From a virus (taxonomy: Duplodnaviria > Heunggongvirae > Uroviricota > Caudoviricetes): a stretch of DNA of 64,000 nt. Each line of letters starts with the position of its first letter. Within the stretch, counting starts at the first letter, position 1. This document shows positions 53,544 through 64,000 of the stretch, piece after piece. A model generated the notes under the pieces. It ran no database searches, was not told the DNA's origin, and saw only the letters and a program-made list of their open reading frames with translations. Location: positions 246,418 to 310,417 of the IMG/VR virus record IMGVR_UViG_3300009784_000001; one strand, 5' to 3'. A program made the translations under genes and the position numbers.

Positions 53544-53602
53544 ACTTTCTACTATTTATTGAAATAAATATTGATTAATTATATTTTTTTAACATTTTAT
53601 AC

Positions 53603-53633
53603 TTTGAAATTAAAAAATAAATTTATATCTTTG
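53603..53633 (+). promoter_or_regulatory. Bacteroidota-type promoter at the start of the RNA island
   Basis: TTTG-N19-TATCTTTG. Confidence 0.8.
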
Positions 53634-53742
53634 CAGTGTAATTCAAATGAATTAGTGTTGAAGTGATAACTGAGTAAGAACATGATACTTCAAATAAATG
53701 TAGTGAGAGATGTACAGCTTTATTCATTTTTTTAGATAAGGT

Positions 53743-53864
53743 TCCCCTGTAGCTCAGTTGGTTAGAGTACTTAAAATGAAGTTTTCTGGGTAGGAAATGT
53801 TCAGCAATATCAATCAAAATCGCTGTTAACGAAGGGGTCGGCAGTTCGAGTCTGTCCAGGGGTT
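53743..53864 (+). ncRNA. tRNA-Asn(GTT)-like RNA with a 48-nt insert (53773-53820) in the anticodon stem
   Basis: Removing the insert restores CTTCG-CTGTTAA-CGAAG; D and T arms canonical; T1:T72 mismatch, T73. Confidence 0.85.
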
Positions 53865-53911
53865 CAAAGATTTCTTATTTAGATTAAAATAAGTGGCAGA
53901 GAAGAGGATTA

Positions 53912-53968
53912 AGAAAACATACAGCATTTTTTATCAATTCAACCATAGGAAAGAAAAAGTGTTTTCTG
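53912..53968 (+). ncRNA. Stand-alone stem-TACAGCA RNA module, copy 1
   Basis: AGAAAACA-TACAGCA...TGTTTTCT-G. Confidence 0.75.
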
Positions 53969-54194
53969 AAATAAAAAGATAGGGTTCACTGAGTTAAAGT
54001 GAATAGTTCAATACCAAGGTGAGGGAAGTGTTGAATGATAATATAAGTCCTTACATGTAATATAACTACATATCTAACATGTTTTATATATAGTCATGAA
54101 TGTTATAAAACCTCTGGAACATTTTTTTTTATTAGGGTAGTTTTCATTGGATTAGACCCTGACTTTATGGTAAGTTATATTTACCTTAATTTAT

Positions 54195-54270
54195 TGGAAC
54201 TTAGCTCAGCTTGATTTAGAGCATCTGTTTTACAAGCAGAGGGCCGTGGGTTTAAATCCCCCAGTTCCAA
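54195..54270 (+). tRNA. tRNA-Val(TAC)
   Basis: Cloverleaf, TCTGT-TTTACAA-GCAGA. Confidence 0.88.
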
Positions 54271-54279
54271 CAATTAAAT

Positions 54280-54351
54280 CGGGGGATAGAGCAGTGGTAG
54301 CTCACCAGGCTCATAACCTGGAGGTCGAAGGTTCGATCCCTTCTCCCCCAA
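54280..54351 (+). tRNA. tRNA-Met(CAT), initiator type
   Basis: C1:A72 mismatch, CCAGG-CTCATAA-CCTGG. Confidence 0.92.
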
Positions 54352-54355
54352 CAAT

Positions 54356-54484
54356 AGGAAAGGTACAGCAAATTGAATTAAAATTCTATTTACAATTTTA
54401 CTATGAGGAAGAGAGCTTTCATCTAAAATAGGTGGAAAACAACTCTCAAAGAAATGAGTACTTCTCTAAAAACTCTCTTTCCTG
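54356..54484 (+). ncRNA. Stand-alone stem-TACAGCA RNA module, copy 2, with a large structured interior
   Basis: AGGAAAGG-TACAGCA...TCTTTCCT-G. Confidence 0.7.
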
Positions 54485-54491
54485 ATATCAT

Positions 54492-54621
54492 AAAATAAAT
54501 CTTTACATCAAGGTGTACATAAATCTGTATAGTGGTACAAATGAGGGGCAAAGGAGAAGAATTTGCGTAGTCCGCTTGGAGTATCGGGTAGCTATGGTTG
54601 GGAAAGGTAAAGATTTATTTT
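54492..54621 (+). ncRNA. Structured ~130-nt RNA closed by a perfect 15-bp stem
   Basis: AAAATAAATCTTTAC / GTAAAGATTTATTTT with internal hairpins. Confidence 0.6.
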
Positions 54622-54636
54622 TAATTTTTATATAAT

Positions 54637-55071
54637 ATGTTATATTCAATATTATTAACATTAGGATTATTAATTTTAGCTCATTTTATTGGAGATTGGA
54701 GTAAATTTGTTCCATTTCATCAAAAAGTAGTTAATGCAAAAGTTAATAAAACCAATACATCTGGAAATTGGATATTTTTACATTCAAGTATTGTATCTCT
54801 GTATAAAATATTTGCAATTTTAATTTCATCTTGGATTATTCCAATAGGAAATATGCCAGGTTTTTTGAATACAATATGGTTTTATATTATTCTTGTAGTA
54901 ATATTTTTTGGAGAACTAATAACACATTTTGTATTTGATATTTCTAAATGGTTTCTAAATAATAAATATAATCTGAATCCATCAAAAGATATTTATTGGA
55001 CTGTTGTTGGTATTGACCAAATGCTACATTATTTAGTAATGTTAGGAATGTTATATTTATTATATTGTTAA
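54637..55071 (+). CDS. DUF3307-like membrane protein
   Basis: AHFIGDW, LHS, THFVFD, GIDQMLHY. Confidence 0.75.
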   Translation: MLYSILLTLGLLILAHFIGDWSKFVPFHQKVVNAKVNKTNTSGNWIFLHSSIVSLYKIFAILISSWIIPIGNMPGFLNTIWFYIILVVIFFGELITHFVFDISKWFLNNKYNLNPSKDIYWTVVGIDQMLHYLVMLGMLYLLYC

Positions 55072-55079
55072 TTTTATAT

Positions 55080-55165
55080 GGCTATGTGGCGTAATTGGGA
55101 GCCGCAGGGGACTTAAAATCCCCTCTCCTGTAAAGGAGGTACAGGTTCAAGTCCTGTCATAGCTA
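55080..55165 (+). tRNA. tRNA-Leu(TAA)
   Basis: GGGGA-CTTAAAA-TCCCC, long variable arm. Confidence 0.92.
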
Positions 55166-55168
55166 CGA

Positions 55169-55289
55169 TGAGAATTAGCTCAGTTGGTAGAGCAAAGGTA
55201 TTATAAAAAGTTTCTTGAATAAGAAATGTTCAGCAATATTTAAAAATGGGAACTTTATGTCAGCAGTTCGAGCCTGCTATTCTCATCCA
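55169..55289 (+). ncRNA. tRNA-like RNA (Pro TGG-like) with ~45 extra nt in the anticodon loop
   Basis: Acceptor TGAGAAT/ATTCTCA-T-CCA, canonical D/T arms, stem AAGGT/ACTTT enclosing 52 nt ending TGGGA. Confidence 0.8.
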
Positions 55290-55292
55290 CAT

Positions 55293-55366
55293 TTTCTGGT
55301 AGTTCAATTGAATAGAACCTTCGGCTTCTACCCGAAAAGTTGGGAGTTTGAATCTCCCCCAGAAAG
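55293..55366 (+). tRNA. tRNA-Arg(TCT)
   Basis: TTCGG-CTTCTAC-CCGAA. Confidence 0.9.
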
Positions 55367-55383
55367 CAAAATAAATAGAAAAA

Positions 55384-55614
55384 ATGAGTAGTTGTATTAA
55401 TAGATTAGATGATGAATTAGATGACCAGCAATGGAAAGAAATGGTATTAAAATGGAATGGTTTCAAATTTAAAGTAATTGATGAATTAAATGAAGTTAAA
55501 ATTAAGAATAAATATGATACCAAAGAAGTTGAAGAATGGAAATTTTTATTTAATAATAAATCCAAAATATTAGCGAATAGAGAATTGATTAACTTATTAA
55601 AAAATTGGGAATGA
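55384..55614 (+). CDS. Hypothetical protein
   Basis: ORF track. Confidence 0.55.
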   Translation: MSSCINRLDDELDDQQWKEMVLKWNGFKFKVIDELNEVKIKNKYDTKEVEEWKFLFNNKSKILANRELINLLKNWE

Positions 55615-55823
55615 ATATAAAGGTAAAAGAATTAATAAGTAAATTACAATTATTTAATCCAGAAGCCGAAGTTGATATTCTATTTAATAATCAACCTTAT
55701 CCTTTGGAAATATATGGTTGGAATTGTGGTGGAGATAATAATTATTCTTCAACTGAATCTAAACAAAAAGCTATTTCAGTATCATTAGGTGGGATTGGGT
55801 TAAATGATAGTGAAAGAATGTAA
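55611..55823 (+). CDS. Hypothetical phage protein (KVKELI.KL..F.P.AEV type)
   Basis: ATG at 55611 overlapping the previous stop. Confidence 0.6.
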   Translation: MNIKVKELISKLQLFNPEAEVDILFNNQPYPLEIYGWNCGGDNNYSSTESKQKAISVSLGGIGLNDSERM

Positions 55824-56159
55824 ATGAAAAGTAAATTTGAATGTAGAGATAAAGTATCATATAATACATTTGAAGAAGCAAATAAAGTATTATCAGTATG
55901 GGATAAAAAGAAAAATAATAGTGAACAATATGCTTATTCTTGTAAAGAATGTGGAAAGATACATATTACCAGTAGAAAGAAACATCTAAATAAAGTAAAA
56001 CCAATTAAATATAAGGAAATTGGATTTACAAATGAGGATAGAAAAAAATGGGGTGGTAGTCGTTCAGTTAAAGAGCAAAAAGAACTTGTAGAAGTATTGT
56101 ATAAAGGAAGAGAAAATAAAAGAGTTACTTTTGGAGATTTATTAAAAAAAGAATATTAA
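55824..56159 (+). CDS. Small zinc-ribbon protein
   Basis: C..K..Y...YSCKECGKIHITS. Confidence 0.65.
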   Translation: MKSKFECRDKVSYNTFEEANKVLSVWDKKKNNSEQYAYSCKECGKIHITSRKKHLNKVKPIKYKEIGFTNEDRKKWGGSRSVKEQKELVEVLYKGRENKRVTFGDLLKKEY

Positions 56160-56179
56160 GTTTTTTTAATACAAAATAT

Positions 56180-56210
56180 TTTGGTAACTCAAAAATAATT
56201 CTTATCTTTG
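56180..56210 (+). promoter_or_regulatory. Bacteroidota-type promoter
   Basis: TTTG-N19-TATCTTTG. Confidence 0.8.
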
Positions 56211-56231
56211 TAGTGTTATTTGAAATTATAA

Positions 56232-56419
56232 CGAGAGGTAGCTTAATGGCAGAGCGCAGTCGGAATGTAAAATTGCAATTTAATGTTCTTAAACAAGACT
56301 GAATGGTGTGCTGTGAAAGTTTGAAAAAAGTGAATACAAACTGAATGGGGTTGCAAACCTTGCAAGTTATGATGCTTGAAGTAGAATGAGTAATTGAGGT
56401 TCAATTCCCACCCTCTTGA
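56232..56419 (+). ncRNA. 188-nt tRNA-like RNA with greatly expanded anticodon and variable regions
   Basis: Acceptor CGAGAGG/CCTCTTG-A, D arm GCTT-AATGGCA-GAGC, CAGTC/GACTG stem, GGTTCAATTCC T loop. Confidence 0.7.
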
Positions 56420-56438
56420 CAAAAAAAATTAAATTGAT

Positions 56439-56705
56439 ATGAAAACATTAAGAGAAAGACAAATTGGTGAAAGATTTAAATATAGAAAAAATATAGTTGA
56501 AGTCAAATCTGTTATTTATAACAAATGTTTTTATTGTCAATTTAGAAATCAATCTAAATGGATTGTAATTCTAAATGGTTGTTATCAAGAAAAAAATATG
56601 TTTGATTCTTGTTCAAAGAAACATAATTGTTCAAGATATACCAGAAAGGATAAAAAAGATGTTTATTTCAAACTAGTCAAAAGACTTTATTTAGAAAGAA
56701 AATGA
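56439..56705 (+). CDS. Cys-rich hypothetical protein
   Basis: ORF track; C..C.F..C..RKD.K.VYFK. Confidence 0.6.
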   Translation: MKTLRERQIGERFKYRKNIVEVKSVIYNKCFYCQFRNQSKWIVILNGCYQEKNMFDSCSKKHNCSRYTRKDKKDVYFKLVKRLYLERK

Positions 56706-57265
56706 TAGGTTCAAATAACACTGATAAGTTTAAGATATTCCAAATAAGATGGGCTGAAAAGTTGGGTTATAACGATAATCCATATTTAATAAGGTGGACA
56801 TTTATATTTTTTGGATATTCAATGAGAATACATCATTGGATTAAATCAGATGATAATAGATATTTTCATGATCATTCAAGTGATTTGTTAAGCATTGTAT
56901 TAAAAGGAAAATATACAAATGTTAAACCTCTTATGTGGAAGAAAAATTTACCTCCAACTCATTTATTTGAAGTTGAATTACCACCAGAATCTTCAATAAA
57001 GAGAAAGTTTATTTCAAATACTGTAGAGTATCCAGTTGAAGGTATTTTTAATTCTTGGAAAAATTTCTTCAATATGAAGAAATCAATATGGTTTTCAAAA
57101 GCAACTGAACAACATTACTTGAGTATTCCAAAAAAAGGTGCATGGACATTGTTATTTGAAGGAAAAGCATATCATAAGTGGGGATTTTATGTAAATCAAC
57201 ATAAATGGAGACCATTAAGATATTTCTCAAAGTTTGGTATAATACAAACAGAAAATTATCAATAA
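56702..57265 (+). CDS. Cupin-like protein
   Basis: RIHH..SDD.R.FHDH..SIVLKG.Y..H..WTL..KWGF. Confidence 0.65.
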   Translation: MIGSNNTDKFKIFQIRWAEKLGYNDNPYLIRWTFIFFGYSMRIHHWIKSDDNRYFHDHSSDLLSIVLKGKYTNVKPLMWKKNLPPTHLFEVELPPESSIKRKFISNTVEYPVEGIFNSWKNFFNMKKSIWFSKATEQHYLSIPKKGAWTLLFEGKAYHKWGFYVNQHKWRPLRYFSKFGIIQTENYQ

Positions 57266-57281
57266 TTTTTAACATAAAAAA

Positions 57282-57313
57282 TTTGGTCATTAAAAATAAA
57301 ATTTGTATCTTTG
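57282..57313 (+). promoter_or_regulatory. Bacteroidota-type promoter
   Basis: TTTG-N20-TATCTTTG. Confidence 0.8.
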
Positions 57314-57607
57314 CATTATAAATTATGTTTTATTGATAGATTCAGGTACTGAATATTGGCACTGTAAAATATAGTTTAGAGTAATAGGCAGTAAGTCATA
57401 TATCTATGAGTAGAGGGTAACGTTTGAAATTAGTATATACTCCTTTGAAAAAGTGCAATGACCTATTATTTTTTATTAAATATTGATAATTTTTTAAATA
57501 ATAGTATATTTATATTAAAAAACTTATAAATGGGTATTGAACCATAAATAAAAAGTAAAAACAAAAAAAGCAATGGGAACAGATGCTTAAAAAAAGAAAA
57601 AAAAGAA

Positions 57608-57739
57608 ATGAGAGAATTTAGTAAACATATTAATAATTTTGTTGAGGTTAGTTATAAACCCAATAGTAATTGTAATTCAAATGAAAAACCATTTGAAGAT
57701 GATAATAATTTGCTAAAAGGATTTTGTGTATATATGTAA
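57608..57739 (+). CDS. Attenuator leader peptide 1: MREFSKHINNFVEVSYKPNSNCNSNEKPFEDDNNLLKGFCVYM (43 aa)
   Basis: Translated by hand; A-rich start context; 3' end complementary to the terminator 5' arm. Confidence 0.75.
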   Translation: MREFSKHINNFVEVSYKPNSNCNSNEKPFEDDNNLLKGFCVYM

Positions 57740-57760
57740 CATTTACTCAAATATACGTTC

Positions 57761-57810
57761 CACAAACCCTGATAGCAAAATTAAAAAAGTTATCAGGGTT
57801 TTGTGTTTTT
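57761..57810 (+). terminator. Attenuator terminator 7 nt before tRNA-Glu
   Basis: CACAAACCCTGATAGC / GTTATCAGGGTTTTGTG plus TTTTT. Confidence 0.85.
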
Positions 57811-57817
57811 AATATAT

Positions 57818-57888
57818 GGCGCATTAGTTTAGTGGTAGAACAGGCGGTTTTCAGCCGAAGGAGAGGGTTTCGATTACCCTATGCGCTA
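57818..57888 (+). tRNA. tRNA-Glu(TTC)
   Basis: Loop TTTTCAG; two mismatches at the top of the anticodon stem. Confidence 0.8.
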
Positions 57889-57895
57889 CAAATAT

Positions 57896-57968
57896 GTACC
57901 TGTGGCAGAGTGGTTTATGCACTTGACTGTTAATCAAGACTACGAAGGTTCGATCCCTTCTGGGTACG
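57896..57968 (+). tRNA. tRNA-Asn(GTT)
   Basis: CTTGA-CTGTTAA-TCAAG, G73. Confidence 0.92.
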
Positions 57969-57976
57969 CAAAAATA

Positions 57977-58048
57977 GAGAGTATAGCATAATCTGGTAAG
58001 TGTGCCTTCCAAGTGGGAAGGAGATGTGGTTCAAATCCAATACTTTCT
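57977..58048 (+). ncRNA. Atypical tRNA-like RNA with a non-canonical anticodon loop
   Basis: GAGAGTA/TACTTTC acceptor, D arm, CCTTCC-AAGTG-GGAAGG, GGTTCAAATCC; no U33. Confidence 0.65.
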
Positions 58049-58056
58049 GCAAAAAT

Positions 58057-58128
58057 AGTCTATTGGTCCAGCGGTTAGGATGCCAGATTGTCAATCTGGT
58101 GGCGAGGGTTCAACTCCCTTATAGACTG
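58057..58128 (+). tRNA. tRNA-Asp(GTC)
   Basis: CCAGA-TTGTCAA-TCTGG, G73. Confidence 0.92.
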
Positions 58129-58134
58129 CTATTT

Positions 58135-58207
58135 CTGGGTGTAATTCAGTAGGAAGAATGCTTGGTTTGGGACCAAGATGTCGGGAGTTCGAGCCTCTCT
58201 ACTCAGA
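58135..58207 (+). tRNA. tRNA-Pro(TGG)
   Basis: CTTGG-TTTGGGA-CCAAG, C1-G72, A73. Confidence 0.92.
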
Positions 58208-58214
58208 CAAAATT

Positions 58215-58290
58215 CGGATAGTAGGGAAGCTCGGTCGTTCCCGCCTGCCCTGGACGCAGGAGATCATAGGTTCAAATCCTGTTTATCCGA
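58215..58290 (+). tRNA. tRNA-Pro(TGG), variant loop with C33 and A37
   Basis: CCTGC-CCTGGAC-GCAGG, C1-G72, A73. Confidence 0.85.
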
Positions 58291-58427
58291 CTATAATTAA
58301 AAAAGTTAAAGGGACTTTGAAAAGAATTATAAGTGAAAATAATATGAGTAATAAATTAAAAATAAAACGAAAATGTAGCTGACCTCACAGTTAATATGGG
58401 CTGTGAGGTTGGGAATAAGGATATTAC

Positions 58428-58500
58428 TCCCTCATAGCTCAATGGTTTAGAGCTTCTGTCTTTTAAACAGAAGAACCAGGTCCGATTCCTGGTGGGGGAA
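58428..58500 (+). tRNA. tRNA-Lys(TTT)
   Basis: TCTGT-CTTTTAA-ACAGA. Confidence 0.9.
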
Positions 58501-58518
58501 CTATAAAAATAAAAAAAA

Positions 58519-58740
58519 ATGTTTTGGGATAACAAAAATAAATGTAAGAAGTATTGTATAGGTTGTAAATTTGCAAGTGAATTTAATAATAATTTTTATT
58601 GTGTTAATGAACTTGGTGAATATATTGTTGCAACAAAAAATCAAGTTTTAGTATCATTGGGATATACAGCTTTACATATATGTAGAGGTTTATTAATAAA
58701 GAAAAATTGCCCATTTTTTGAAAAAGATAGAAAATTATGA
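58519..58740 (+). CDS. Cys-rich hypothetical protein
   Basis: ORF track. Confidence 0.55.
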   Translation: MFWDNKNKCKKYCIGCKFASEFNNNFYCVNELGEYIVATKNQVLVSLGYTALHICRGLLIKKNCPFFEKDRKL

Positions 58741-58985
58741 AAGAAATTAGTATTAAAGATGTAATTGATAATAGTAAAAGAGCTAAATTAACTCATGCTA
58801 TTGCAGGGAGATTGTATTATAGGGTAGATGATATAGAAAGAAATACTACATATCAATTTTGTGTAGATATGAATGATAAAGAAGATGTTGGTTCAACTAC
58901 ATTTATTGTAGATGAAAAAGCTATTCTTTTAATGAGATATATTAGAAAATCAAAAGATTCTGGTGATTTAATTCAAATTAAATAG
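58737..58985 (+). CDS. Hypothetical phage protein
   Basis: G.LYY...D.G..TF...EKA..LMRYIRK pattern. Confidence 0.65.
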   Translation: MKEISIKDVIDNSKRAKLTHAIAGRLYYRVDDIERNTTYQFCVDMNDKEDVGSTTFIVDEKAILLMRYIRKSKDSGDLIQIK

Positions 58986-58989
58986 CATA

Positions 58990-59181
58990 ATGAGTTTTAT
59001 TTATGAAATAAAAAATTTAGAGAAAATAAAAGAAGAAGGTAGTATTTACATTCAATGCCCATGTTGCCAAGAAAGTTTTGATTATTATCTAGATAAATAT
59101 GAATTAGATATTTTGAATAAAGAAGAGGACATTTATTGTAAGTGTATAGAATGTGGTAATTCTTTCTATCTTTCTTTGTAG
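58990..59181 (+). CDS. Small zinc-ribbon protein
   Basis: CPCC..CIECG. Confidence 0.6.
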   Translation: MSFIYEIKNLEKIKEEGSIYIQCPCCQESFDYYLDKYELDILNKEEDIYCKCIECGNSFYLSL

Positions 59182-59237
59182 ATTATCAAAAAGTGATAAA
59201 AATCATTTTATGTATTGTAAAAGATGAAAAGAATAAA

Positions 59238-59269
59238 TTTGGTATATTCAATAATAATTTGTACTTTTG
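59238..59269 (+). promoter_or_regulatory. Bacteroidota-type promoter
   Basis: TTTG-N20-TACTTTTG. Confidence 0.75.
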
Positions 59270-59312
59270 CGATATAATTATCTATTTATAGATACAACAA
59301 AAAAGTATAAAA

Positions 59313-59648
59313 ATGAAAAAAAGAATTATTATTTTATTATCATTATTTTTCATAATGAACATAAGTCAAGCAGCTATTTATAAAACAAAAAGTGAAAGTG
59401 ATGTAATTGAGAATAGTACAGGTTTATTTGGAGAAAAAAAAGTAGAGAAAATTGAAAATACAGAAGATAATTATGGTGGATTATTCAGAGCATCAGATCC
59501 AGGTGGAAGACCAGGGAATGGTGATGGAATTGGTCAGCAAGCACCATTAGGTGATGGATTAAAAATATTACTTATACTTTGTTTTTTCTTTCTTCTTTAT
59601 GAATTTTCTACAAACAAAAAAATTAACATAAAAAATTTGGATAATTAA
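59313..59648 (+). CDS. Secreted small protein with a PID-CTERM-like C-terminal anchor
   Basis: Signal peptide ending SQA; G/P-rich linker; APLGDG plus TM plus basic tail. Confidence 0.6.
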   Translation: MKKRIIILLSLFFIMNISQAAIYKTKSESDVIENSTGLFGEKKVEKIENTEDNYGGLFRASDPGGRPGNGDGIGQQAPLGDGLKILLILCFFFLLYEFSTNKKINIKNLDN

Positions 59649-59667
59649 AAAATAAATTGTAATTTTG
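59636..59667 (+). promoter_or_regulatory. Bacteroidota-type promoter for the Met / CAGCA / leader-2 transcript
   Basis: TTTG-N20-TAATTTTG. Confidence 0.7.
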
Positions 59668-59704
59668 TAGAGTAATAAGATATTTATAAGATATAAAAAT
59701 AGAT

Positions 59705-59782
59705 CGTGGTGTGGAGGAGTCTGGCTTTCCTCATCTGGCTCATAACCAGAATGTCACATGGGTTCAAATCCCATCACCGCAA
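59705..59782 (+). tRNA. tRNA-Met(CAT), initiator type
   Basis: C1:A72 mismatch, TCTGG-CTCATAA-CCAGA. Confidence 0.9.
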
Positions 59783-59787
59783 CAAAT

Positions 59788-59841
59788 AGAAAACATACAG
59801 CATTTTTTCAATTTTCAATGGGAGAAAAAAAGTGTTTTCTG
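59788..59841 (+). ncRNA. Stand-alone stem-TACAGCA RNA module, copy 3
   Basis: AGAAAACA-TACAGCA...TGTTTTCT-G, near copy of 53912. Confidence 0.75.
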
Positions 59842-59850
59842 AAAAAAATA

Positions 59851-59932
59851 AGGAAAGATACAGCAATGTTAAATGGTTAAAAGAAAATTCTGTAAAAATT
59901 TTTTGAAAAGGTTCAAATCCTATTCTTTCCTG
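59851..59932 (+). ncRNA. Stem-TACAGCA RNA module, copy 4, enclosing a tRNA-Tyr-like anticodon arm and T arm
   Basis: AGGAAAGA-TACAGCA..AATGGTTA..AAAATT-CTGTAAA-AATTTT..AGG-TTCAAAT-CCT..TCTTTCCT-G. Confidence 0.75.
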
Positions 59933-59968
59933 TAAATTTGAAAAGTTAAATTAAAAAAAATAGAAAAA

Positions 59969-60079
59969 ATGAAACAAATTAGTAGTACATATTGTCTTGG
60001 AAGTTCATCAGCGATTAGTTTTGCTGGTACAACATCCTTTTGTACTTATCATTTTTATGATAATTTTGTTTCAAGTTAA
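59969..60079 (+). CDS. Attenuator leader peptide 2: MKQISSTYCLGSSSAISFAGTTSFCTYHFYDNFVSS (36 aa)
   Basis: Translated by hand; 25 of 36 codons are S/T/Y/C/F/A/L; 3' end complementary to the terminator 5' arm. Confidence 0.82.
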   Translation: MKQISSTYCLGSSSAISFAGTTSFCTYHFYDNFVSS

Positions 60080-60108
60080 AAAAAGAATTACCTTAACCTG
60101 GCAAGGAT

Positions 60109-60153
60109 AAACCTGAAACAAATCTATAAAAAAGAAAAGTTTCAGGTTTTTTT
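60109..60153 (+). terminator. Attenuator terminator 9 nt before tRNA-Ser(GCT)
   Basis: AAACCTGAAAC / GTTTCAGGTTT plus T run. Confidence 0.85.
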
Positions 60154-60162
60154 AATTTATAT

Positions 60163-60247
60163 GGAAAGTAAACCTATAAGGTGTAGGAACCGCCTGCTAA
60201 GCGAGTTGTACAATTAAATGTATGTGAATCGTGTTCACTGCTCTCCG
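60163..60247 (+). tRNA. tRNA-Ser(GCT)
   Basis: CGC-CTGCTAA-GCG, long variable arm, G73; atypical T loop. Confidence 0.78.
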
Positions 60248-60288
60248 CAAAAGTTCTTTGAAATTGTTGGTTAATTATAAATTATTAT

Positions 60289-60371
60289 GGATTAGTTGGG
60301 TAGTGGCAATCCCAAGACACTGTAACTGTCTCGCCTTCGGGCTTTCGCTGGTTCGAGTCCAGCCTAATCCA
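60289..60371 (+). tRNA. tRNA-Tyr(GTA)
   Basis: AGACA-CTGTAAC-TGTCT, variable arm GCC-TTCG-GGC. Confidence 0.92.
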
Positions 60372-60442
60372 CATAAAAATATTTTTCTTAATAACTATAC
60401 TTTTTTAGTTCGATGCGATATTTATATATAAATGTAAATATT

Positions 60443-61384
60443 ATGATAAAGGAACGAGAAGAATTAATTATTAAAATAATAAAAGAGAGTAATAGTATTT
60501 CAGAGGTTTGTAAAAAGTTAAATATATCTGTTACTAATGGTAATTATATAACAATAAAAAAAATAATAAAAAACAATAATTTAGATATATCTCATTTTAA
60601 AAGAGTTTCACAAAATTCTAATAAAAAGCGATATACGTTACAAGAAATTATGGTTGAAAATTCATCATACACCAATGTAAATAAATTAAAGAAAAGATTA
60701 ATTAAAGAAGGGATTAAGGAAAATAAATGTGAAATATGTGGAATAAGTAAATGGAATGGAGAACAAATTTCTTTACAATTGCATCATAAAAATGGTATCA
60801 CAAGTGATAATAGAATAGAAAATTTACAAGTACTTTGTCCCAATTGTCATTCTCAAACACATAACTATGGTGGGAAAAATATAGATAATAAAATAAGAGA
60901 AGATAGATTTTGCAGAATATGTGAGAAAAAGTTAAACGATACACAAAAAAAGTATTGTTCAATCAATTGCTATAATAAAAGTATTGATGATAATATTCCA
61001 ACTAAAAACAAAATCTTATCTTATATAAAAAATTATACAACACTTGTAGAATTATGTAAAAAAGAAAAAATTGATAGAGGGACATTTAGAAATTGGTGTA
61101 ATAAAAGACAATGTATAGATGATGTAAATTTTTTGTTGAAAAAAAATTTTGAAATAAAAATTTTAAATATTGAAGTTAAGAATGATTTATATGAAAAAAG
61201 ATGTGAATTAATAAATAAATTTAAAAAATTTGGGTCATTCTTACAAGTAGGTAAATATTATGGAGTATCCGATAATATGATAAGAAAAAGATGTAAAAAA
61301 ATTGGTTTACCTGTTCATACAAAAGAAATGATAAAATTAATAAATTCGGAAGAATGTCAGAGTGCTTTATTGTACAACTCTTGA
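60443..61384 (+). CDS. Free-standing HNH homing endonuclease within the tRNA array
   Basis: CEICG..LQLHHKNG..DNRIENLQVLCPNCHSQT; the stop codon is the anticodon of the next tRNA. Confidence 0.88.
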   Translation: MIKEREELIIKIIKESNSISEVCKKLNISVTNGNYITIKKIIKNNNLDISHFKRVSQNSNKKRYTLQEIMVENSSYTNVNKLKKRLIKEGIKENKCEICGISKWNGEQISLQLHHKNGITSDNRIENLQVLCPNCHSQTHNYGGKNIDNKIREDRFCRICEKKLNDTQKKYCSINCYNKSIDDNIPTKNKILSYIKNYTTLVELCKKEKIDRGTFRNWCNKRQCIDDVNFLLKKNFEIKILNIEVKNDLYEKRCELINKFKKFGSFLQVGKYYGVSDNMIRKRCKKIGLPVHTKEMIKLINSEECQSALLYNS

Positions 61385-61432
61385 AAAGTTGTGAACTTTC
61401 GAGTTCCGTAGGTTGGAATCCTACTTCTTCCG
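61348..61432 (+). tRNA. tRNA-Ser(TGA)
   Basis: CAACT-CTTGAAA-AGTTG, long variable arm, G73. Confidence 0.9.
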
Positions 61433-61443
61433 CAAGATAATAA

Positions 61444-61516
61444 GGGATAGTAACATAGAAGTTTATGTGCTGGTCTGAAAAACCAGAAATGCTTGAGGCG
61501 GTATCAGCCTATCCCA
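61444..61516 (+). tRNA. tRNA-Phe(GAA)
   Basis: CTGGT-CTGAAAA-ACCAG; atypical T loop GGCGGTA. Confidence 0.8.
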
Positions 61517-61526
61517 CAAATTAAAT

Positions 61527-61612
61527 GCTTCAATGGGGGAATTGCTAGACCCGCTTGATTTAGGCTCAAGTTTCTGGGAACAGAAGTGTAGGTTGGATTC
61601 CTACTTGAAGTA
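61527..61612 (+). tRNA. tRNA-Leu(TAG)
   Basis: CTTGA-TTTAGGC-TCAAG, long variable arm. Confidence 0.9.
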
Positions 61613-61618
61613 CAATAT

Positions 61619-61690
61619 GTTCAGTTGCCAGAGTGATAATGGGGTAGACTGCAAATCTATTTTTCGTTGGTTTGAATCCAACACTGAATT
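61619..61690 (+). tRNA. tRNA-Cys(GCA)
   Basis: GTAGA-CTGCAAA-TCTAT, T73. Confidence 0.9.
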
Positions 61691-61702
61691 CAAAAAATAA
61701 AT

Positions 61703-61773
61703 GCTGTGTTAGTATAAGAGTATTACATTGGCTTTGTAACCCAAAAATGGGGATGCGATTTCCTCACACAGCT
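61703..61773 (+). tRNA. tRNA-Thr(TGT)
   Basis: TTGGC-TTTGTAA-CCCAA, acceptor GCTGTGT/ACACAGC. Confidence 0.85.
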
Positions 61774-61782
61774 CTAAATTAA

Positions 61783-61854
61783 GGGCTTATCATATAATAG
61801 CTATTATGCCACCCCTGCAAGGTGGTTATTGGAGTGCAATTCTCCATAGGTCCA
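61783..61854 (+). tRNA. tRNA-Ala(TGC) with C33
   Basis: G3:T70 wobble, A73, CCACC-CCTGCAA-GGTGG. Confidence 0.85.
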
Positions 61855-61883
61855 CTTATTTAGCATTTATTAACTTGAATAAT

Positions 61884-61914
61884 TTTGATATTAGATAATA
61901 TTTTCTTATCTTTG
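61884..61914 (+). promoter_or_regulatory. Bacteroidota-type promoter
   Basis: TTTG-N19-TATCTTTG. Confidence 0.8.
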
Positions 61915-61933
61915 TATCATTAAAATAAATGGT

Positions 61934-62548
61934 ATGAAAAAGATAGAATTAGTTTATAATAATTTAGATATTAATAATTTACCAGGTGAAATATGGGTAG
62001 ATGCTTATGATTTTGATGGTTATTATGAAGTATCCAATATGGGGAGGATAAAAACTTGTGAAAGAGAAGTCAGTAATGGAGTTGGGACAAGAATAGTAAT
62101 TAGTAAAATTAGGAAACAGGTTTTAGGTAAAGATGATAGATTAACTTGTCCCTTTACTATAAATAATGAAAGTATATCTATAAATGTTTCAAGGTTAATC
62201 TTTCAATCTTTTAACCCCACTAAGATTTTAGATAATTTAGTGGTTTCACATAGAAATAGATGTAAATGTGATAATAGATTGAATAATTTAAAAGTGGAAA
62301 CATTACAAAACAATCATTTTGATAATGTTCATAAGTATAATTATGGCTTAAAAGAACATTTGTTAAAACTGAATAAAATTAAACATGAAAAATTTGTCAA
62401 TACAATAAAAAGCAAAGTTTGTAATAAATGTGGAATAGAAAAAGATATAATAGAATTTGTATATAAAAGAGAAGGAAAAAGAGATGAAAATAGAAATATA
62501 TGTAAAATGTGTAGAAATAAACGTGAAAGAAATAGAATTAAAAAATGA
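61934..62548 (+). CDS. NUMOD4-HNH homing endonuclease
   Basis: GEIW....FDGYYEVSNMGRIK (NUMOD4); VSHRN..KCDNRLNNL. Confidence 0.88.
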   Translation: MKKIELVYNNLDINNLPGEIWVDAYDFDGYYEVSNMGRIKTCEREVSNGVGTRIVISKIRKQVLGKDDRLTCPFTINNESISINVSRLIFQSFNPTKILDNLVVSHRNRCKCDNRLNNLKVETLQNNHFDNVHKYNYGLKEHLLKLNKIKHEKFVNTIKSKVCNKCGIEKDIIEFVYKREGKRDENRNICKMCRNKRERNRIKK

Positions 62549-62967
62549 GTTATAAAGATTTTTTTCAAAAACCAGAGTTTGATTTGGATGAAGTAGAAGA
62601 AAAAAGAGTAAATGCTTTGAAACCAGATGAAAATGGTGATTTAATGGAAAATGGTGATTATATTTTTCAGGATAGAGCAATTCATAATCAACAAGGTAAT
62701 ACAATTCAGCGTTCTTTTACAACTGTAAAGGGAGTTAGAGTAATGGAAGATACTTACATACCCTGGTCATGCTTTCAACCAATGAGGATGACTTTTGTGG
62801 TAGATTTGACATTGCCTGATGATACATTACCAACAACTGAAACAAGTTGGATGCAAAATTGGTATGAGCCTGAAGGATTTGCTCATCCTGCATTTGTAAA
62901 TTTTGAAGATGTTGTTGAATTTATAATTAAATGGAGAAAAAGTAACCCTAAAGTGGTTAATAATTAA
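62545..62967 (+). CDS. Hypothetical protein
   Basis: ORF track. Confidence 0.6.
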   Translation: MSYKDFFQKPEFDLDEVEEKRVNALKPDENGDLMENGDYIFQDRAIHNQQGNTIQRSFTTVKGVRVMEDTYIPWSCFQPMRMTFVVDLTLPDDTLPTTETSWMQNWYEPEGFAHPAFVNFEDVVEFIIKWRKSNPKVVNN

Positions 62968-62975
62968 ATAAAAAT

Positions 62976-63048
62976 GTTCAGTTCTTCTAATGGTTTAGGA
63001 AGCAAGACTGATATTCTTGTAATATAAGTTCGATTCTTATACTGAACA
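62976..63048 (+). tRNA. tRNA-Ile(GAT)
   Basis: CAAGA-CTGATAT-TCTTG. Confidence 0.88.
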
Positions 63049-63050
63049 CT

Positions 63051-63128
63051 GTGTGGGTAGCTAATATTGGTTAAGGCACTAGATTGTGGCTCTAGGTTTT
63101 TATGGGGGTTCGATTCCCCTCTCACACC
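63051..63128 (+). tRNA. tRNA-His(GTG)
   Basis: CTAGA-TTGTGGC-TCTAG, C73; genomic -1 base is T. Confidence 0.9.
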
Positions 63129-63142
63129 AAAAATAAGAAAGT

Positions 63143-63173
63143 TTTGTTATTTAAAAAATTATTCATATCTTTG
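63143..63173 (+). promoter_or_regulatory. Bacteroidota-type promoter
   Basis: TTTG-N19-TATCTTTG. Confidence 0.8.
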
Positions 63174-63193
63174 TATTGTAAATTAAATAAGAT

Positions 63194-63700
63194 ATGAAAA
63201 AAATCAGAAAATTTGTATTTGAAACAAACAGTTCAAGTTCTCATTCTATTACATTAGGTGATTTAGATTCATTTAGAAAAGATAGATATGGATTAAAATC
63301 TTGTATAGATGAAAATAACAATCTTGTATTAAAAGGTGGTGAATTTGGTTGGTATTTAGAAGATGATGAGGGTGCTGAAACAAAAGTAAATTATGTTGCA
63401 GTAGCTTTAACTTATTATTATGAAGCTGCGAAAGACAATGAAGAAAATTATTATGGTTTTACATTAGATGAAATCAATAATATTATTGAATTATTTAAAG
63501 AAGTTTTGAGAGAAGAAACAGATGCAGAAGTTGTTTTCAATTTTAAAGTAGGTTGGGAAGATTCTTACATTGATCATCAATCTATTGATATGATTGCAGA
63601 TGAAATTAAAGGTAAAAATGATTCAGAATTGAAAGAATTTTTCTATAATTTCATTTTTAATGAAAATTCAATATTAATAATTGATAATGATAATCATTAA
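63194..63700 (+). CDS. Phage protein of the R..FETNSSS.HS family
   Basis: N-terminal FETNSSSSHS, YIDHQS, C-terminal DND. Confidence 0.75.
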   Translation: MKKIRKFVFETNSSSSHSITLGDLDSFRKDRYGLKSCIDENNNLVLKGGEFGWYLEDDEGAETKVNYVAVALTYYYEAAKDNEENYYGFTLDEINNIIELFKEVLREETDAEVVFNFKVGWEDSYIDHQSIDMIADEIKGKNDSELKEFFYNFIFNENSILIIDNDNH

Positions 63701-63702
63701 TT

Positions 63703-63888
63703 ATGAATGAAGATAGTGGAGTTAGTTGTGGATGTGGTTGTTTTTCTTTTAGTATAGGTTGGGGGACTATTATTGCTGTAATATTAAGTTGAATGAAATG
63801 GCATTCAATTGGATGGGTAATTATTCATGGGTTATTAGGATGGTTATATGTAATATATTATATTGCAAAATATGTGTTATTAAATTAA
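63703..63888 (+). pseudogene. Small membrane protein interrupted by an in-frame TGA at 63790
   Basis: ..TIIAVILS*MKWHSIGWVIIHGLLGWLYVIYY.. reads as one hydrophobic protein. Confidence 0.6.
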
Positions 63889-63899
63889 AAATATATAAT

Positions 63900-64000
63900 A
63901 TGAAAAAAATTAGAATTAGTGTTTTTGAAACGAATAGTTCCAGCACTCATAGTCTTACAATTGTATCAAAAGAAGATTTTGAGAAGTGGAAAAAAGGTGA
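63900..64000 (+). CDS. Second FETNSSS.HS paralogue, runs off the window
   Basis: MKKIRISVFETNSSSTHSLTI. Confidence 0.75.
   Translation, partial: MKKIRISVFETNSSSTHSLTIVSKEDFEKWKKG

What the first reader, a model, noticed from the sequence alone, without database searches (positions are those of the whole stretch)
53912..59932. Four stand-alone stem-TACAGCA RNAs are circular permutations of the tRNA-inserted module
Seen: elements at 53912-53968, 54356-54484, 59788-59841 and 59851-59932 all read [8-nt strand A]-TACAGCA-cargo-[complementary strand B]-G, with covarying stems (AGAAAACA/TGTTTTCT vs AGGAAAGA/TCTTTCCT). In the two tRNA inserts the order is B-GNNT-A-TTCAGCA, the same helix and motif closed from the other end. 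Three of the four sit in runs directly behind the two initiator tRNA-Met genes. Inference: a modular protein-binding RNA tag attached to variable cargo, analogous in logic to bacterial Y RNAs (Ro-binding stem plus tRNA-like domain), or RNAs that get circularised.
Basis: partly seen in the sequence, partly recalled or inferred. Interest (0 to 1): 0.82.

Follow-up and report, generated by a model that had tools for sequence, protein, structure and literature searches.

The report
Phage tRNA-mimic RNAs sharing protein handle
Six small RNA genes hidden among a giant phage's tRNA genes share one "handle" (a 7-base-pair clamp next to a short fixed motif), in open form or built into a tRNA body; the handle travels in many phages with a protein predicted to fold like the RNA-binding ring Ro60, so these RNAs are most likely its partners, a pairing I found in no paper or RNA database searched.

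Summary
Four open handles (7-bp stem, WWCAGCA, cargo, partner strand) and two hairpin-closed handles inside tRNA bodies lie in a 360-kb phage's tRNA clusters; shuffles give 0.016 and 0.001. A seventh handle touches the start codon of the phage's DUF2828/DUF7788 gene, 47 kb past the window, whose model's 13 significant Foldseek hits are all Ro60/Rsr. Of 42 viral records picked by the RNA pattern alone, 39 encode this protein; 0 of 8 chance hits do. G.U outnumbers A.C 24 to 2, so the helix is RNA. Relatives carry the exact permutation (handle around a back-to-front tRNA, the YrlA layout). Corrections: the tRNA-Met link is incidental; only the handle, not the four whole RNAs, is permuted here; circles are not needed, because tandem DNA duplication can explain the two forms. 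Best reading: Y-RNA-like partners of a second Ro60-fold family, many displaying tRNA parts, possibly as bait for anticodon nucleases. They fail the YrlA, TROVE and Class I score tests. This scan found the same system before in other phages and giant viruses.

The parts
53603..53633 (+). Bacteroidota-type promoter consensus (TTTG, 19 nt, TAnnTTTG) heading the unit with the first tRNA-shaped RNA and open elements 1 and 2
   Evidence: consensus from my own knowledge of Bacteroides promoters; activity not shown
53743..53864 (+). tRNA-shaped RNA 1: 48-nt insert in the 5' strand of the anticodon stem (after position 28 or 29) carrying a closed handle; Asn-type loop (anticodon GUU at 53825-53827); U1xU72, U73, no encoded CCA
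   Evidence: (tRNA 36.2 bits); orthologue in L537 shows a Thr UGU loop
53781..53806 (+). closed handle: strand B 53781-53787, 4-nt loop, strand A 53792-53798, TTCAGCA 53800-53806
53912..53968 (+). open element 1 (57 nt): handle plus one A/U-rich hairpin; best hit of the Dictyostelium Class I model in the genome, far below cut-off
54280..54352 (+). tRNA-Met(CAU), initiator-like, directly before element 2
54356..54484 (+). open element 2 (129 nt): handle plus multi-hairpin cargo with no tRNA T-loop; cargo unexplained
55169..55289 (+). tRNA-shaped RNA 2: complete 5-bp anticodon stem, anticodon loop replaced by about 52 nt with a closed handle and a conserved UGGG; U1-A72, U73, encoded CCA
   Evidence: orthologue L536 with compensatory acceptor-stem changes
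55210..55235 (+). closed handle: strand B 55210-55216, 4-nt loop, strand A 55221-55227, TTCAGCA 55229-55235
59636..59667 (+). Bacteroidota-type promoter consensus heading the unit tRNA-Met, element 3, element 4
   Evidence: activity not shown
59705..59783 (+). tRNA-Met(CAU), initiator-like, directly before element 3
59788..59841 (+). open element 3 (54 nt), paralogue of element 1: handle plus one hairpin whose loop can be read as a Glu(UUC)-type anticodon loop in one of two registers (weak)
59851..59932 (+). open element 4 (82 nt): handle in place of an acceptor stem; D-loop-like stretch, perfect 5-bp anticodon stem 59885-59901 with Tyr(GUA) loop, T arm 59907-59923. (Two further parts lie outside the window: a seventh handle at genome C1:357173-357211 and the DUF2828/DUF7788 gene at C1:357212-358813, L001:1456-3057.)
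   Evidence: sequence; Rfam tRNA model positions 10-63, 22.4 bits, E 0.41; energy folding does not favour this cloverleaf; outside parts:

Best explanation
The stem-plus-WWCAGCA module is an RNA docking handle for the phage's DUF2828/DUF7788 protein (genome C1:357212-358813, outside the window), a distant Ro60-fold ring. The six window RNAs are cut from polycistronic tRNA transcripts and each presents one handle plus a cargo, as Y RNAs do for Ro60/Rsr. The handle works in either connectivity because only the helix and the unpaired motif 3' of strand A matter; open and closed forms interconvert in evolution by tandem duplication of DNA units, not necessarily by RNA circles. Much of the cargo mimics tRNA (whole body, back-to-front body, body without acceptor stem, or a lone anticodon hairpin). 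The mimics are probably not used in translation; the likeliest job is to bring the ring to tRNA-attacking or tRNA-handling enzymes (bait or sensor for host anticodon nucleases, or scaffold for RNA repair or decay). The copy at the gene's start codon probably lets free protein repress its own translation. Shown here: motif, helix, strand bias, two connectivities, co-occurrence, predicted fold. Inferred: transcription, processing, binding, autoregulation. The bait or sensor role is the weakest step (about 0.35 on its own).
For: Non-random in the window. Family: 525 distinct open handles in the fetched loci against 2-17 for seven scrambled motifs; in loci picked by the protein alone 24 sense, 0 antisense, scrambled controls 0-4. 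Picked by RNA pattern alone: 39 of 42 records with handles encode a P0001 homologue, 0 of 8 chance hits; among records at least 90% complete 20 of 20 against 0 of 4. Blind patterns with free stem positions: 10 viral hits that pair, 6 with the gene in the fetched locus on the same strand, 0 of 105 that do not pair; bacterial genomes 3 of 11 against 0 of 23; 9 distinct fully paired hits against 0.84 expected. Non-Watson-Crick stem cells: 24 G.U against 2 A.C. Model pLDDT 90.7; all 13 Foldseek hits with E <= 0.001 are Ro60/Rsr; VIA-align Z 25.4, rmsd 3.7, 406 aligned to 1yvp. Cargo: 86 T-then-D, 22 D-then-T; 101 of 362 cargos without a T-loop show an anticodon-type stem-loop against 6.8 in shuffles, 32 Lys(UUU) and 17 Thr(UGU), anticodons that make up 3.5% and 4% of ordinary tRNAs in such loci and are the prime targets of AriB and OLD nucleases (bioRxiv 10.1101/2025.02.04.636281; PMC12445682). 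Orthologous tRNA-shaped RNA 1 shows Asn here, Thr in L537, Lys in L492.
Against: In this genome the gene is 51-57 kb from the RNAs, whereas YrlA genes lie within 4 kb of Ro60 (PMC4201824). The protein has no TROVE Pfam match and no sequence match to any solved structure; identity to Ro60 in the structural alignments is 10-14%. The motif differs from the Ro60-binding GNCGAA. Records are related to each other, so the counts overstate independent events, and I sorted the loci by eye (before the search). The harvest of open handles requires pairing, so its pair tables are not an independent covariation test. Under my strict definition two tRNA clusters of close relatives (L493/494, L496) showed no clear handle. 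The Lys/Thr excess may partly reflect A/U richness and kinship. Elements 1, 2 and 3 here have no clear tRNA feature.
Confidence: 0.75

Rival explanations
1. The closed handles mark a new kind of protein-dependent tRNA intron: the insert is cut out (perhaps as a circle), giving working tRNA-Asn(GUU) and tRNA-Pro(UGG); the free-standing RNAs are ligated end to end into circles with the same closed handle.
For: Removing 53773-53820 or 55202-55246 in silico gives cloverleaves that ARAGORN accepts as Asn(GUU) and Pro(UGG). Many relatives keep a canonical 7-nt loop on a 3-bp stem after the insert. The phage encodes an Rnl2-type RNA ligase domain (C1:8808) and a CCA/poly(A) polymerase-family gene. 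Open ends AG and CUG are held together by the stem.
Against: The products would lack the synthetase identity bases (from established tRNA knowledge: Asn needs G73, Pro G72/A73; both have U73, and RNA 1 has U1xU72). The phage has intact Asn and two intact Pro(UGG) genes. One scaffold carries Lys, Asn or Ser loops without a long variable arm. No tRNA splicing endonuclease or RtcB. The two inserts sit at different positions. Back-to-front versions with open handles exist and cannot be explained as introns. Tandem spacers match the loop (an array of identical closed handles in L544).
Confidence: 0.1
2. The handle is a cis-acting processing or stability signal that defines the ends of units in the tRNA operon transcript, read by the DUF2828 protein or a host nuclease; cargo is secondary.
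For: Open handles close the 5' and 3' ends of each unit, often 3-15 nt from a tRNA or from the next handle.
Against: Closed handles sit inside a tRNA body whose ends are set by the acceptor stem; most tRNAs in the clusters have no handle; cargo is strongly enriched for anticodon stem-loops; a copy abuts a translation start.
Confidence: 0.07
3. The RNAs are real, but the handle is bound by another protein (host or phage), and the DUF2828 gene merely shares a regulon or a phage lifestyle.
For: Dictyostelium Class I RNAs, which have a similar stem-plus-motif layout, bind an RRM protein (PMC7919456). The gene is far from the RNAs here.
Against: Near-perfect co-occurrence across phages of 75-425 kb with homologues of very different sequence, adjacency in blind searches including bacteria, the handle on the gene's own start, and an RNA-binding fold.
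Confidence: 0.05
4. The repeats are DNA sites (recombination, replication or transcription-factor sites) and are not functional as RNA.
For: No transcript data were obtained; the motif is short.
Against: G.U 24 against A.C 2; 24 sense against 0 antisense; partner strand at very different distances and on either side; copies embedded in tRNA bodies; location behind promoter consensus sites among tRNA genes.
Confidence: 0.03

Closest known systems
Ro60/Rsr with YrlA-type Y RNAs of bacteria and phages (Rfam RF02553; Chen et al. 2014, PMC4201824)
   Same: Ring-plus-vWA protein fold (predicted); small RNAs with a terminal stem and short motif plus a tRNA-like domain; in relatives the same back-to-front layout (T arm before D arm, acceptor closed by a linker, handle at the anticodon stem); several RNAs per locus.
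   Different: Protein is DUF2828/DUF7788, with no TROVE match and 10-14% identity; motif WWCAGCA 3' of a 7-bp stem, not GNCGAA; YrlA model far below cut-off; handle also occurs hairpin-closed inside intact tRNA bodies, in place of the acceptor stem, on lone anticodon hairpins and at the gene's own start codon; genes can be 50 kb apart.
Thermus phage phiLo Ro60 with Yrl1/Yrl2 (PMC12135203; PDB 9KOP, 9L5Y)
   Same: Phage-encoded Ro60-fold ring with phage-encoded stem-closed partner RNAs; top Foldseek hit. That complex binds host PNPase and dampens it.
   Different: A recognised Ro60 homologue, CGAA motif, RNAs directly upstream of the gene; no tRNA-embedded form described.
Dictyostelium Class I RNAs (Rfam RF01414; Kjellin et al. 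2021, PMC7919456)
   Same: About 60 nt, short stem joining the ends with free sequence, unpaired conserved motif just 3' of the 5' strand, variable interior, flanks AAG and CUGU; element 1 is the model's best hit in 360 kb.
   Different: 15.1 bits against a cut-off of 41.5, E 1.15; conserved T3 of the 11-nt motif missing in all six copies, A11 in two; eukaryotic promoter element; known partner is an RRM protein; no tRNA cargo described.
Intron-containing and permuted tRNA genes (archaeal/eukaryotic BHB introns, group I introns)
   Same: Insert in the anticodon arm whose removal gives a cloverleaf; permuted gene order in relatives.
   Different: No splicing endonuclease, insert too short for group I, identity bases do not match the anticodon, intact copies of the same tRNAs present.

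Membership tests
YrlA / bacterial Y RNA (RF02553) | Score at or above the Rfam gathering cut-off (69 bits) | tested here: not met
   Best in the genome 20.7 bits, on a T-arm/D-arm junction between adjacent tRNA genes
YrlA / bacterial Y RNA (RF02553) | GNCGAA(N)G Ro-binding motif near the 5' end | tested here: not met
   The shared motif is WWCAGCA; no GNCGAA at that place in any of the six copies (PMC4201824)
YrlA / bacterial Y RNA (RF02553) | tRNA-like domain with T arm before D arm, acceptor closed internally | tested here: not met
   Not in this window's RNAs (normal order or no tRNA part); met by 86 related open handles elsewhere
YrlA / bacterial Y RNA (RF02553) | Encoded within about 4 kb of the Ro60 gene, same strand | tested here: not met
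   Same strand but 51-57 kb away here; adjacent in many relatives
Y RNA (functional sense) | Binds a Ro60-fold protein through the stem and motif | not testable with these tools
   Only co-occurrence and fold prediction
Ro60/TROVE protein family | TROVE domain match (PF05731) | tested here: not met
   No match in the genome, controls ring; P0001 matches DUF7788 and weakly DUF2828
Ro60/TROVE protein family | Helical-repeat ring closed by a vWA domain with MIDAS motif | tested here: met
   Predicted model; Foldseek TM 0.42-0.54 over the full length to Ro60/Rsr, VIA-align Z 25.4 (rmsd 3.7, 406 aligned) to 1yvp; invariant D323, S325, S327, T393, D426
Dictyostelium Class I RNA (RF01414) | Score at or above gathering cut-off (41.5 bits) | tested here: not met
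   15.1 bits for element 1
Dictyostelium Class I RNA (RF01414) | Short terminal stem, unpaired motif with T3, C6, C9, A10, A11, variable interior | tested here: inconclusive
   Stem, layout, C6, C9, A10 met in the four open copies; T3 in none, A11 in two of four
Spliced tRNA intron | Removal yields a tRNA with matching identity elements | tested here: not met
   Cloverleaves form but U73 and the 1-72 pairs do not fit Asn or Pro (identity rules from established knowledge)
Spliced tRNA intron | Spliced product or excised circle detected in RNA | not testable with these tools

The most novel reading that the evidence does not exclude
A second, undescribed Ro/Y-like ribonucleoprotein family, widespread in jumbo phages, giant viruses and some bacteria, in which a portable RNA handle loads a Ro60-fold ring with interchangeable tRNA mimics whose anticodons (Lys UUU, Thr UGU, Asn GUU, Tyr GUA) track the targets of host anticodon nucleases, making it an RNA-programmed counter-defence or damage-sensing platform; the orphan Class I RNAs of social amoebae would be its eukaryotic offshoot.
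Probability: 0.3. Interest if true: 0.88.

Novelty: new variant of a known kind. Interest (0 to 1): 0.66.

Why it matters
It would give a function and an RNA partner to DUF2828/DUF7788, an unexplained family common in phages and giant viruses, and add a second kind of Ro/Y particle. It explains a class of phage 'tRNAs with introns' and 'pseudo-tRNAs' as protein-tagged mimics. This genome is useful because it holds three connectivities of the handle plus a copy on the protein's own start codon, so one binding assay with 54-130-nt RNAs tests the whole model. A 26-nt handle that works in either connectivity could also be a compact RNA tag. The likeness to Class I RNAs offers a testable lead for a long-unexplained amoebal RNA class.

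Tried and rejected
Rfam at gathering and at E <= 10: no family names the handle. Literature searches for DUF2828, the motif letters, phage Ro60 and permuted phage tRNAs found no description; the library lacks many subscription papers. TROVE, RtcB and tRNA splicing endonuclease are absent from the genome. Sequence search of solved structures with the protein alignment: no hit. Initiator-tRNA link rejected; the Met-anchored scan was not analysed separately since the unbiased scan answered the question. Sigma-70 promoter and terminator scan was near chance level; the Bacteroidota consensus was informative instead. The single-protein locus search found nothing; the alignment did. A stem-blind test on closed handles anchored only on the terminal bases was weak (8 fully paired against 1.3, maximum 7) because the register varies. 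The anticodon-loop count included T-loops and was redone without them. No complex prediction: the tool does not take RNA partners.


Full report
Setting. The window is C1:246418-310417 of a complete 359,943-base phage record with direct terminal repeats and 26% G+C. Promoter-like sites of the Bacteroidota type (TTTG, 19-21 nt, TAnnTTTG; consensus from my own knowledge) head the tRNA clusters, including 53603 and 59636, so the host is probably a Bacteroidota bacterium. The finding lies in the tRNA region, all on the + strand.

Observation. The four free-standing elements are present as described. Each starts with a 7-nt strand beginning AG, then one base, then TACAGCA, a cargo of 30-105 nt, the complementary strand ending CT, and G. 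In two tRNA-shaped genes (53743-53864, 55169-55289) the same helix is closed by a 4-nt G-initiated loop and followed by one base and TTCAGCA. A strict scan gives 4 open and 2 closed handles in 53600-64000 against 0.016 and 0.001 in 1000 shuffles. Over the whole genome there is one more open handle beginning AG and no further closed one. Ensemble folding gives the handle helix a probability of 0.99 in elements 1, 3 and 4 and about 0.7 in element 2, with the motif unpaired in 1 and 3. Corrections: the common helix is 7 bp, and element 2 has G.U at the eighth position.

The partner protein. The extra handle (C1:357173-357211) ends on the base before the start codon of a 533-aa gene 47 kb beyond the window (C1:357212-358813). 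The protein, P0001, matches DUF7788 and weakly DUF2828, not TROVE, and has 1191 homologues in the search. Its model (pLDDT 90.7, pTM 0.90) has 13 Foldseek hits at E <= 0.001, all Ro60 or Rsr, including the Thermus phage phiLo protein; VIA-align ranks Ro60 (1yvp) first at Z 25.4, rmsd 3.7 over 406 residues, well above vWA-only matches at 11.6 or less. A MIDAS-type DxSxS motif is invariant.

Co-occurrence, tested from both sides. From the protein: loci around 76 homologues hold 24 distinct open handles on the gene's strand and none on the other; scrambled motifs give 0-4; 13 of 77 have one at or near the start codon, as does the closest homologue. From the RNA: of 50 viral records found by a D-arm-plus-motif pattern, I classed 42 as handle-bearing (open or closed form) and 8 as chance before searching; 39 of 42 and 0 of 8 encode a homologue, 20 of 20 and 0 of 4 among records at least 90% complete, and the three exceptions are 27-52% complete. 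Patterns that leave the stem free give the same split: hits whose strands pair have the gene in the fetched locus in 6 of 10 viral and 3 of 11 bacterial cases, hits that do not pair in 0 of 105 and 0 of 23. These records are partly related, so the numbers are not independent events, but the complete phages range from about 70 to 425 kb and the homologues from E 1e-193 to 1e-11.

RNA, not DNA. In a harvest that allows one non-Watson-Crick cell of any kind, G.U occurs 24 times and A.C twice; a DNA inverted repeat would not prefer one. Handles keep the strand of their neighbours, the partner strand lies at very different distances and on either side, and copies are built into tRNA bodies.

Permutation. 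About 40 distinct tRNA-shaped bodies with the motif in the anticodon arm were collected, most with the closed hairpin. Among 525 open handles, 86 enclose a back-to-front tRNA (T arm, acceptor halves joined by a linker, D arm), the exact permutation of the closed form and the layout of YrlA (PMC4201824); 22 enclose D-then-T arms like element 4. Circles are not needed to link the forms. In arrays, the commonest single gap between consecutive open handles is 4 nt with spacers such as GATA, the same length and first base as the closed loops (gaps of 9-10 nt are about as common), and an array of identical closed handles exists (L544). Duplicating an open unit in tandem and losing the outer halves yields the closed form; this step is inference.

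Are the two tRNA-shaped genes spliced? Removing the inserts in silico gives Asn(GUU) and Pro(UGG) cloverleaves, so the intron reading is not excluded. But both have U73, the first has U1xU72, neither fits the known identity bases of those tRNAs, intact Asn and Pro genes exist nearby, the genome has no splicing endonuclease or RtcB, and orthologues swap the loop: Asn here, Thr in L537, Lys in L492. The orthologue of the second gene (L536) keeps the acceptor stem by compensatory changes, the CCA and a UGGG run whose role I cannot explain. The phage does encode an Rnl2-type ligase and a CCA-type nucleotidyltransferase, which fit RNA repair as well as circularisation.

What the cargo suggests. Element 4 reads as D-loop, perfect 5-bp anticodon stem with a Tyr(GUA) loop and T arm, the handle standing in for the acceptor stem; the Rfam tRNA model covers positions 10-63 there, though energy folding prefers another structure. 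Across the family 101 of 362 cargos without a T-loop show a tRNA-type anticodon stem-loop (6.8 in shuffles), 32 Lys(UUU) and 17 Thr(UGU), against 3.5% and 4% of ordinary tRNAs in such loci. Lys(UUU), Thr(UGU) and Asn(GUU) are the reported targets of the PARIS nuclease AriB (10.1101/2025.02.04.636281) and Thr(UGU) of P2 OLD (PMC12445682). This makes bait or sensing of anticodon nucleases my preferred function, at about 0.35; a RYPER-like tether to host PNPase as shown for phiLo (PMC12135203) or a repair scaffold are close alternatives. Kinship and A/U richness may inflate the excess. Elements 1-3 show no clear tRNA feature.

The tRNA-Met link. True here, but not general: 15 of 138 tRNAs directly followed by a handle are Met(CAU), against 107 of 1415 in the same loci; 29 anticodon types occur.

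Comparison with known systems. It works like Ro60 with Y RNAs but fails membership: no GNCGAA motif, YrlA score 20.7 against 69, no TROVE match, gene far away. The open form resembles Dictyostelium Class I RNAs in size, stem, unpaired motif and flanks (PMC7919456), and element 1 is that model's best hit in the genome, but at 15.1 bits against 41.5: a lead, not a member. No Rfam family and no paper in the library describes the handle or a DUF2828 RNA partner.

Relation to earlier notes of this scan. I had found the DUF2828 gene and stated the partner reading before opening them. They report the same system in many other phages and giant viruses and supplied the Class I lead, a paper identifier and the 29/30 break; they are not independent evidence. 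The counts above are my own.

Verdict. Real feature; a new variant of the Ro/Y kind with about 0.75 confidence for the protein-partner reading; interest 0.66. Binding, expression and function remain to be shown.

Noticed in passing
window 56232-56420 (+): tRNA-shaped RNA missed by ARAGORN and Rfam: 7-bp acceptor stem, D arm, 5-bp anticodon stem with a loop of about 34 nt, about 110 nt in the variable region, damaged T arm; directly behind a promoter consensus at 56180; no handle motif. No relative among the fetched loci.
   Followed up: partly
window 54492-54622 (+): Unannotated structured RNA candidate right behind element 2: 15-bp closing stem, G+C-rich inner hairpins, fold z-score -2.8; no Rfam match, no relative in the fetched loci.
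   Followed up: partly
window 57976-58050 (+): Called tRNA-Thr(AGT) by ARAGORN, but the loop lacks U33 and has G37/G38; low Rfam score (32.9 bits). Possibly another tRNA mimic.
   Followed up: no
window 57608-57810 and 59969-60153 (+): Short ORFs followed by terminator-like hairpins in front of tRNA runs; earlier notes of the scan read them as codon-matched attenuators. Element 4 ends 37 nt before the second leader and probably shares its promoter.
   Followed up: no
window 60180-60260, 61444-61520, 61703-61773, 61783-61854 (+): tRNA genes (Ser GCU, Phe GAA, Thr UGU, Ala UGC by eye) that ARAGORN missed; several have non-standard T-loops.
   Followed up: partly
window 60413-61384 and 61934-62548 (+): Two HNH endonuclease genes (one with NUMOD4) inserted in the tRNA array.
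   Followed up: no
L001:89-790 (genome C1:355845-356546): A stand-alone vWA-domain gene lies two genes upstream of the DUF2828 gene.
   Followed up: no
L544:2920-3100: Tandem array of at least four near-identical closed handles with short, partly repeated spacers, CRISPR-like in layout.
   Followed up: no
window 55247-55250; L536, L094, L085, L495: The second class of handle-bearing tRNA bodies keeps a UGGG run just 5' of the 3' anticodon-stem strand; it could pair with a CCA end as in T-box or RNase P loops. Unexplained.
   Followed up: no
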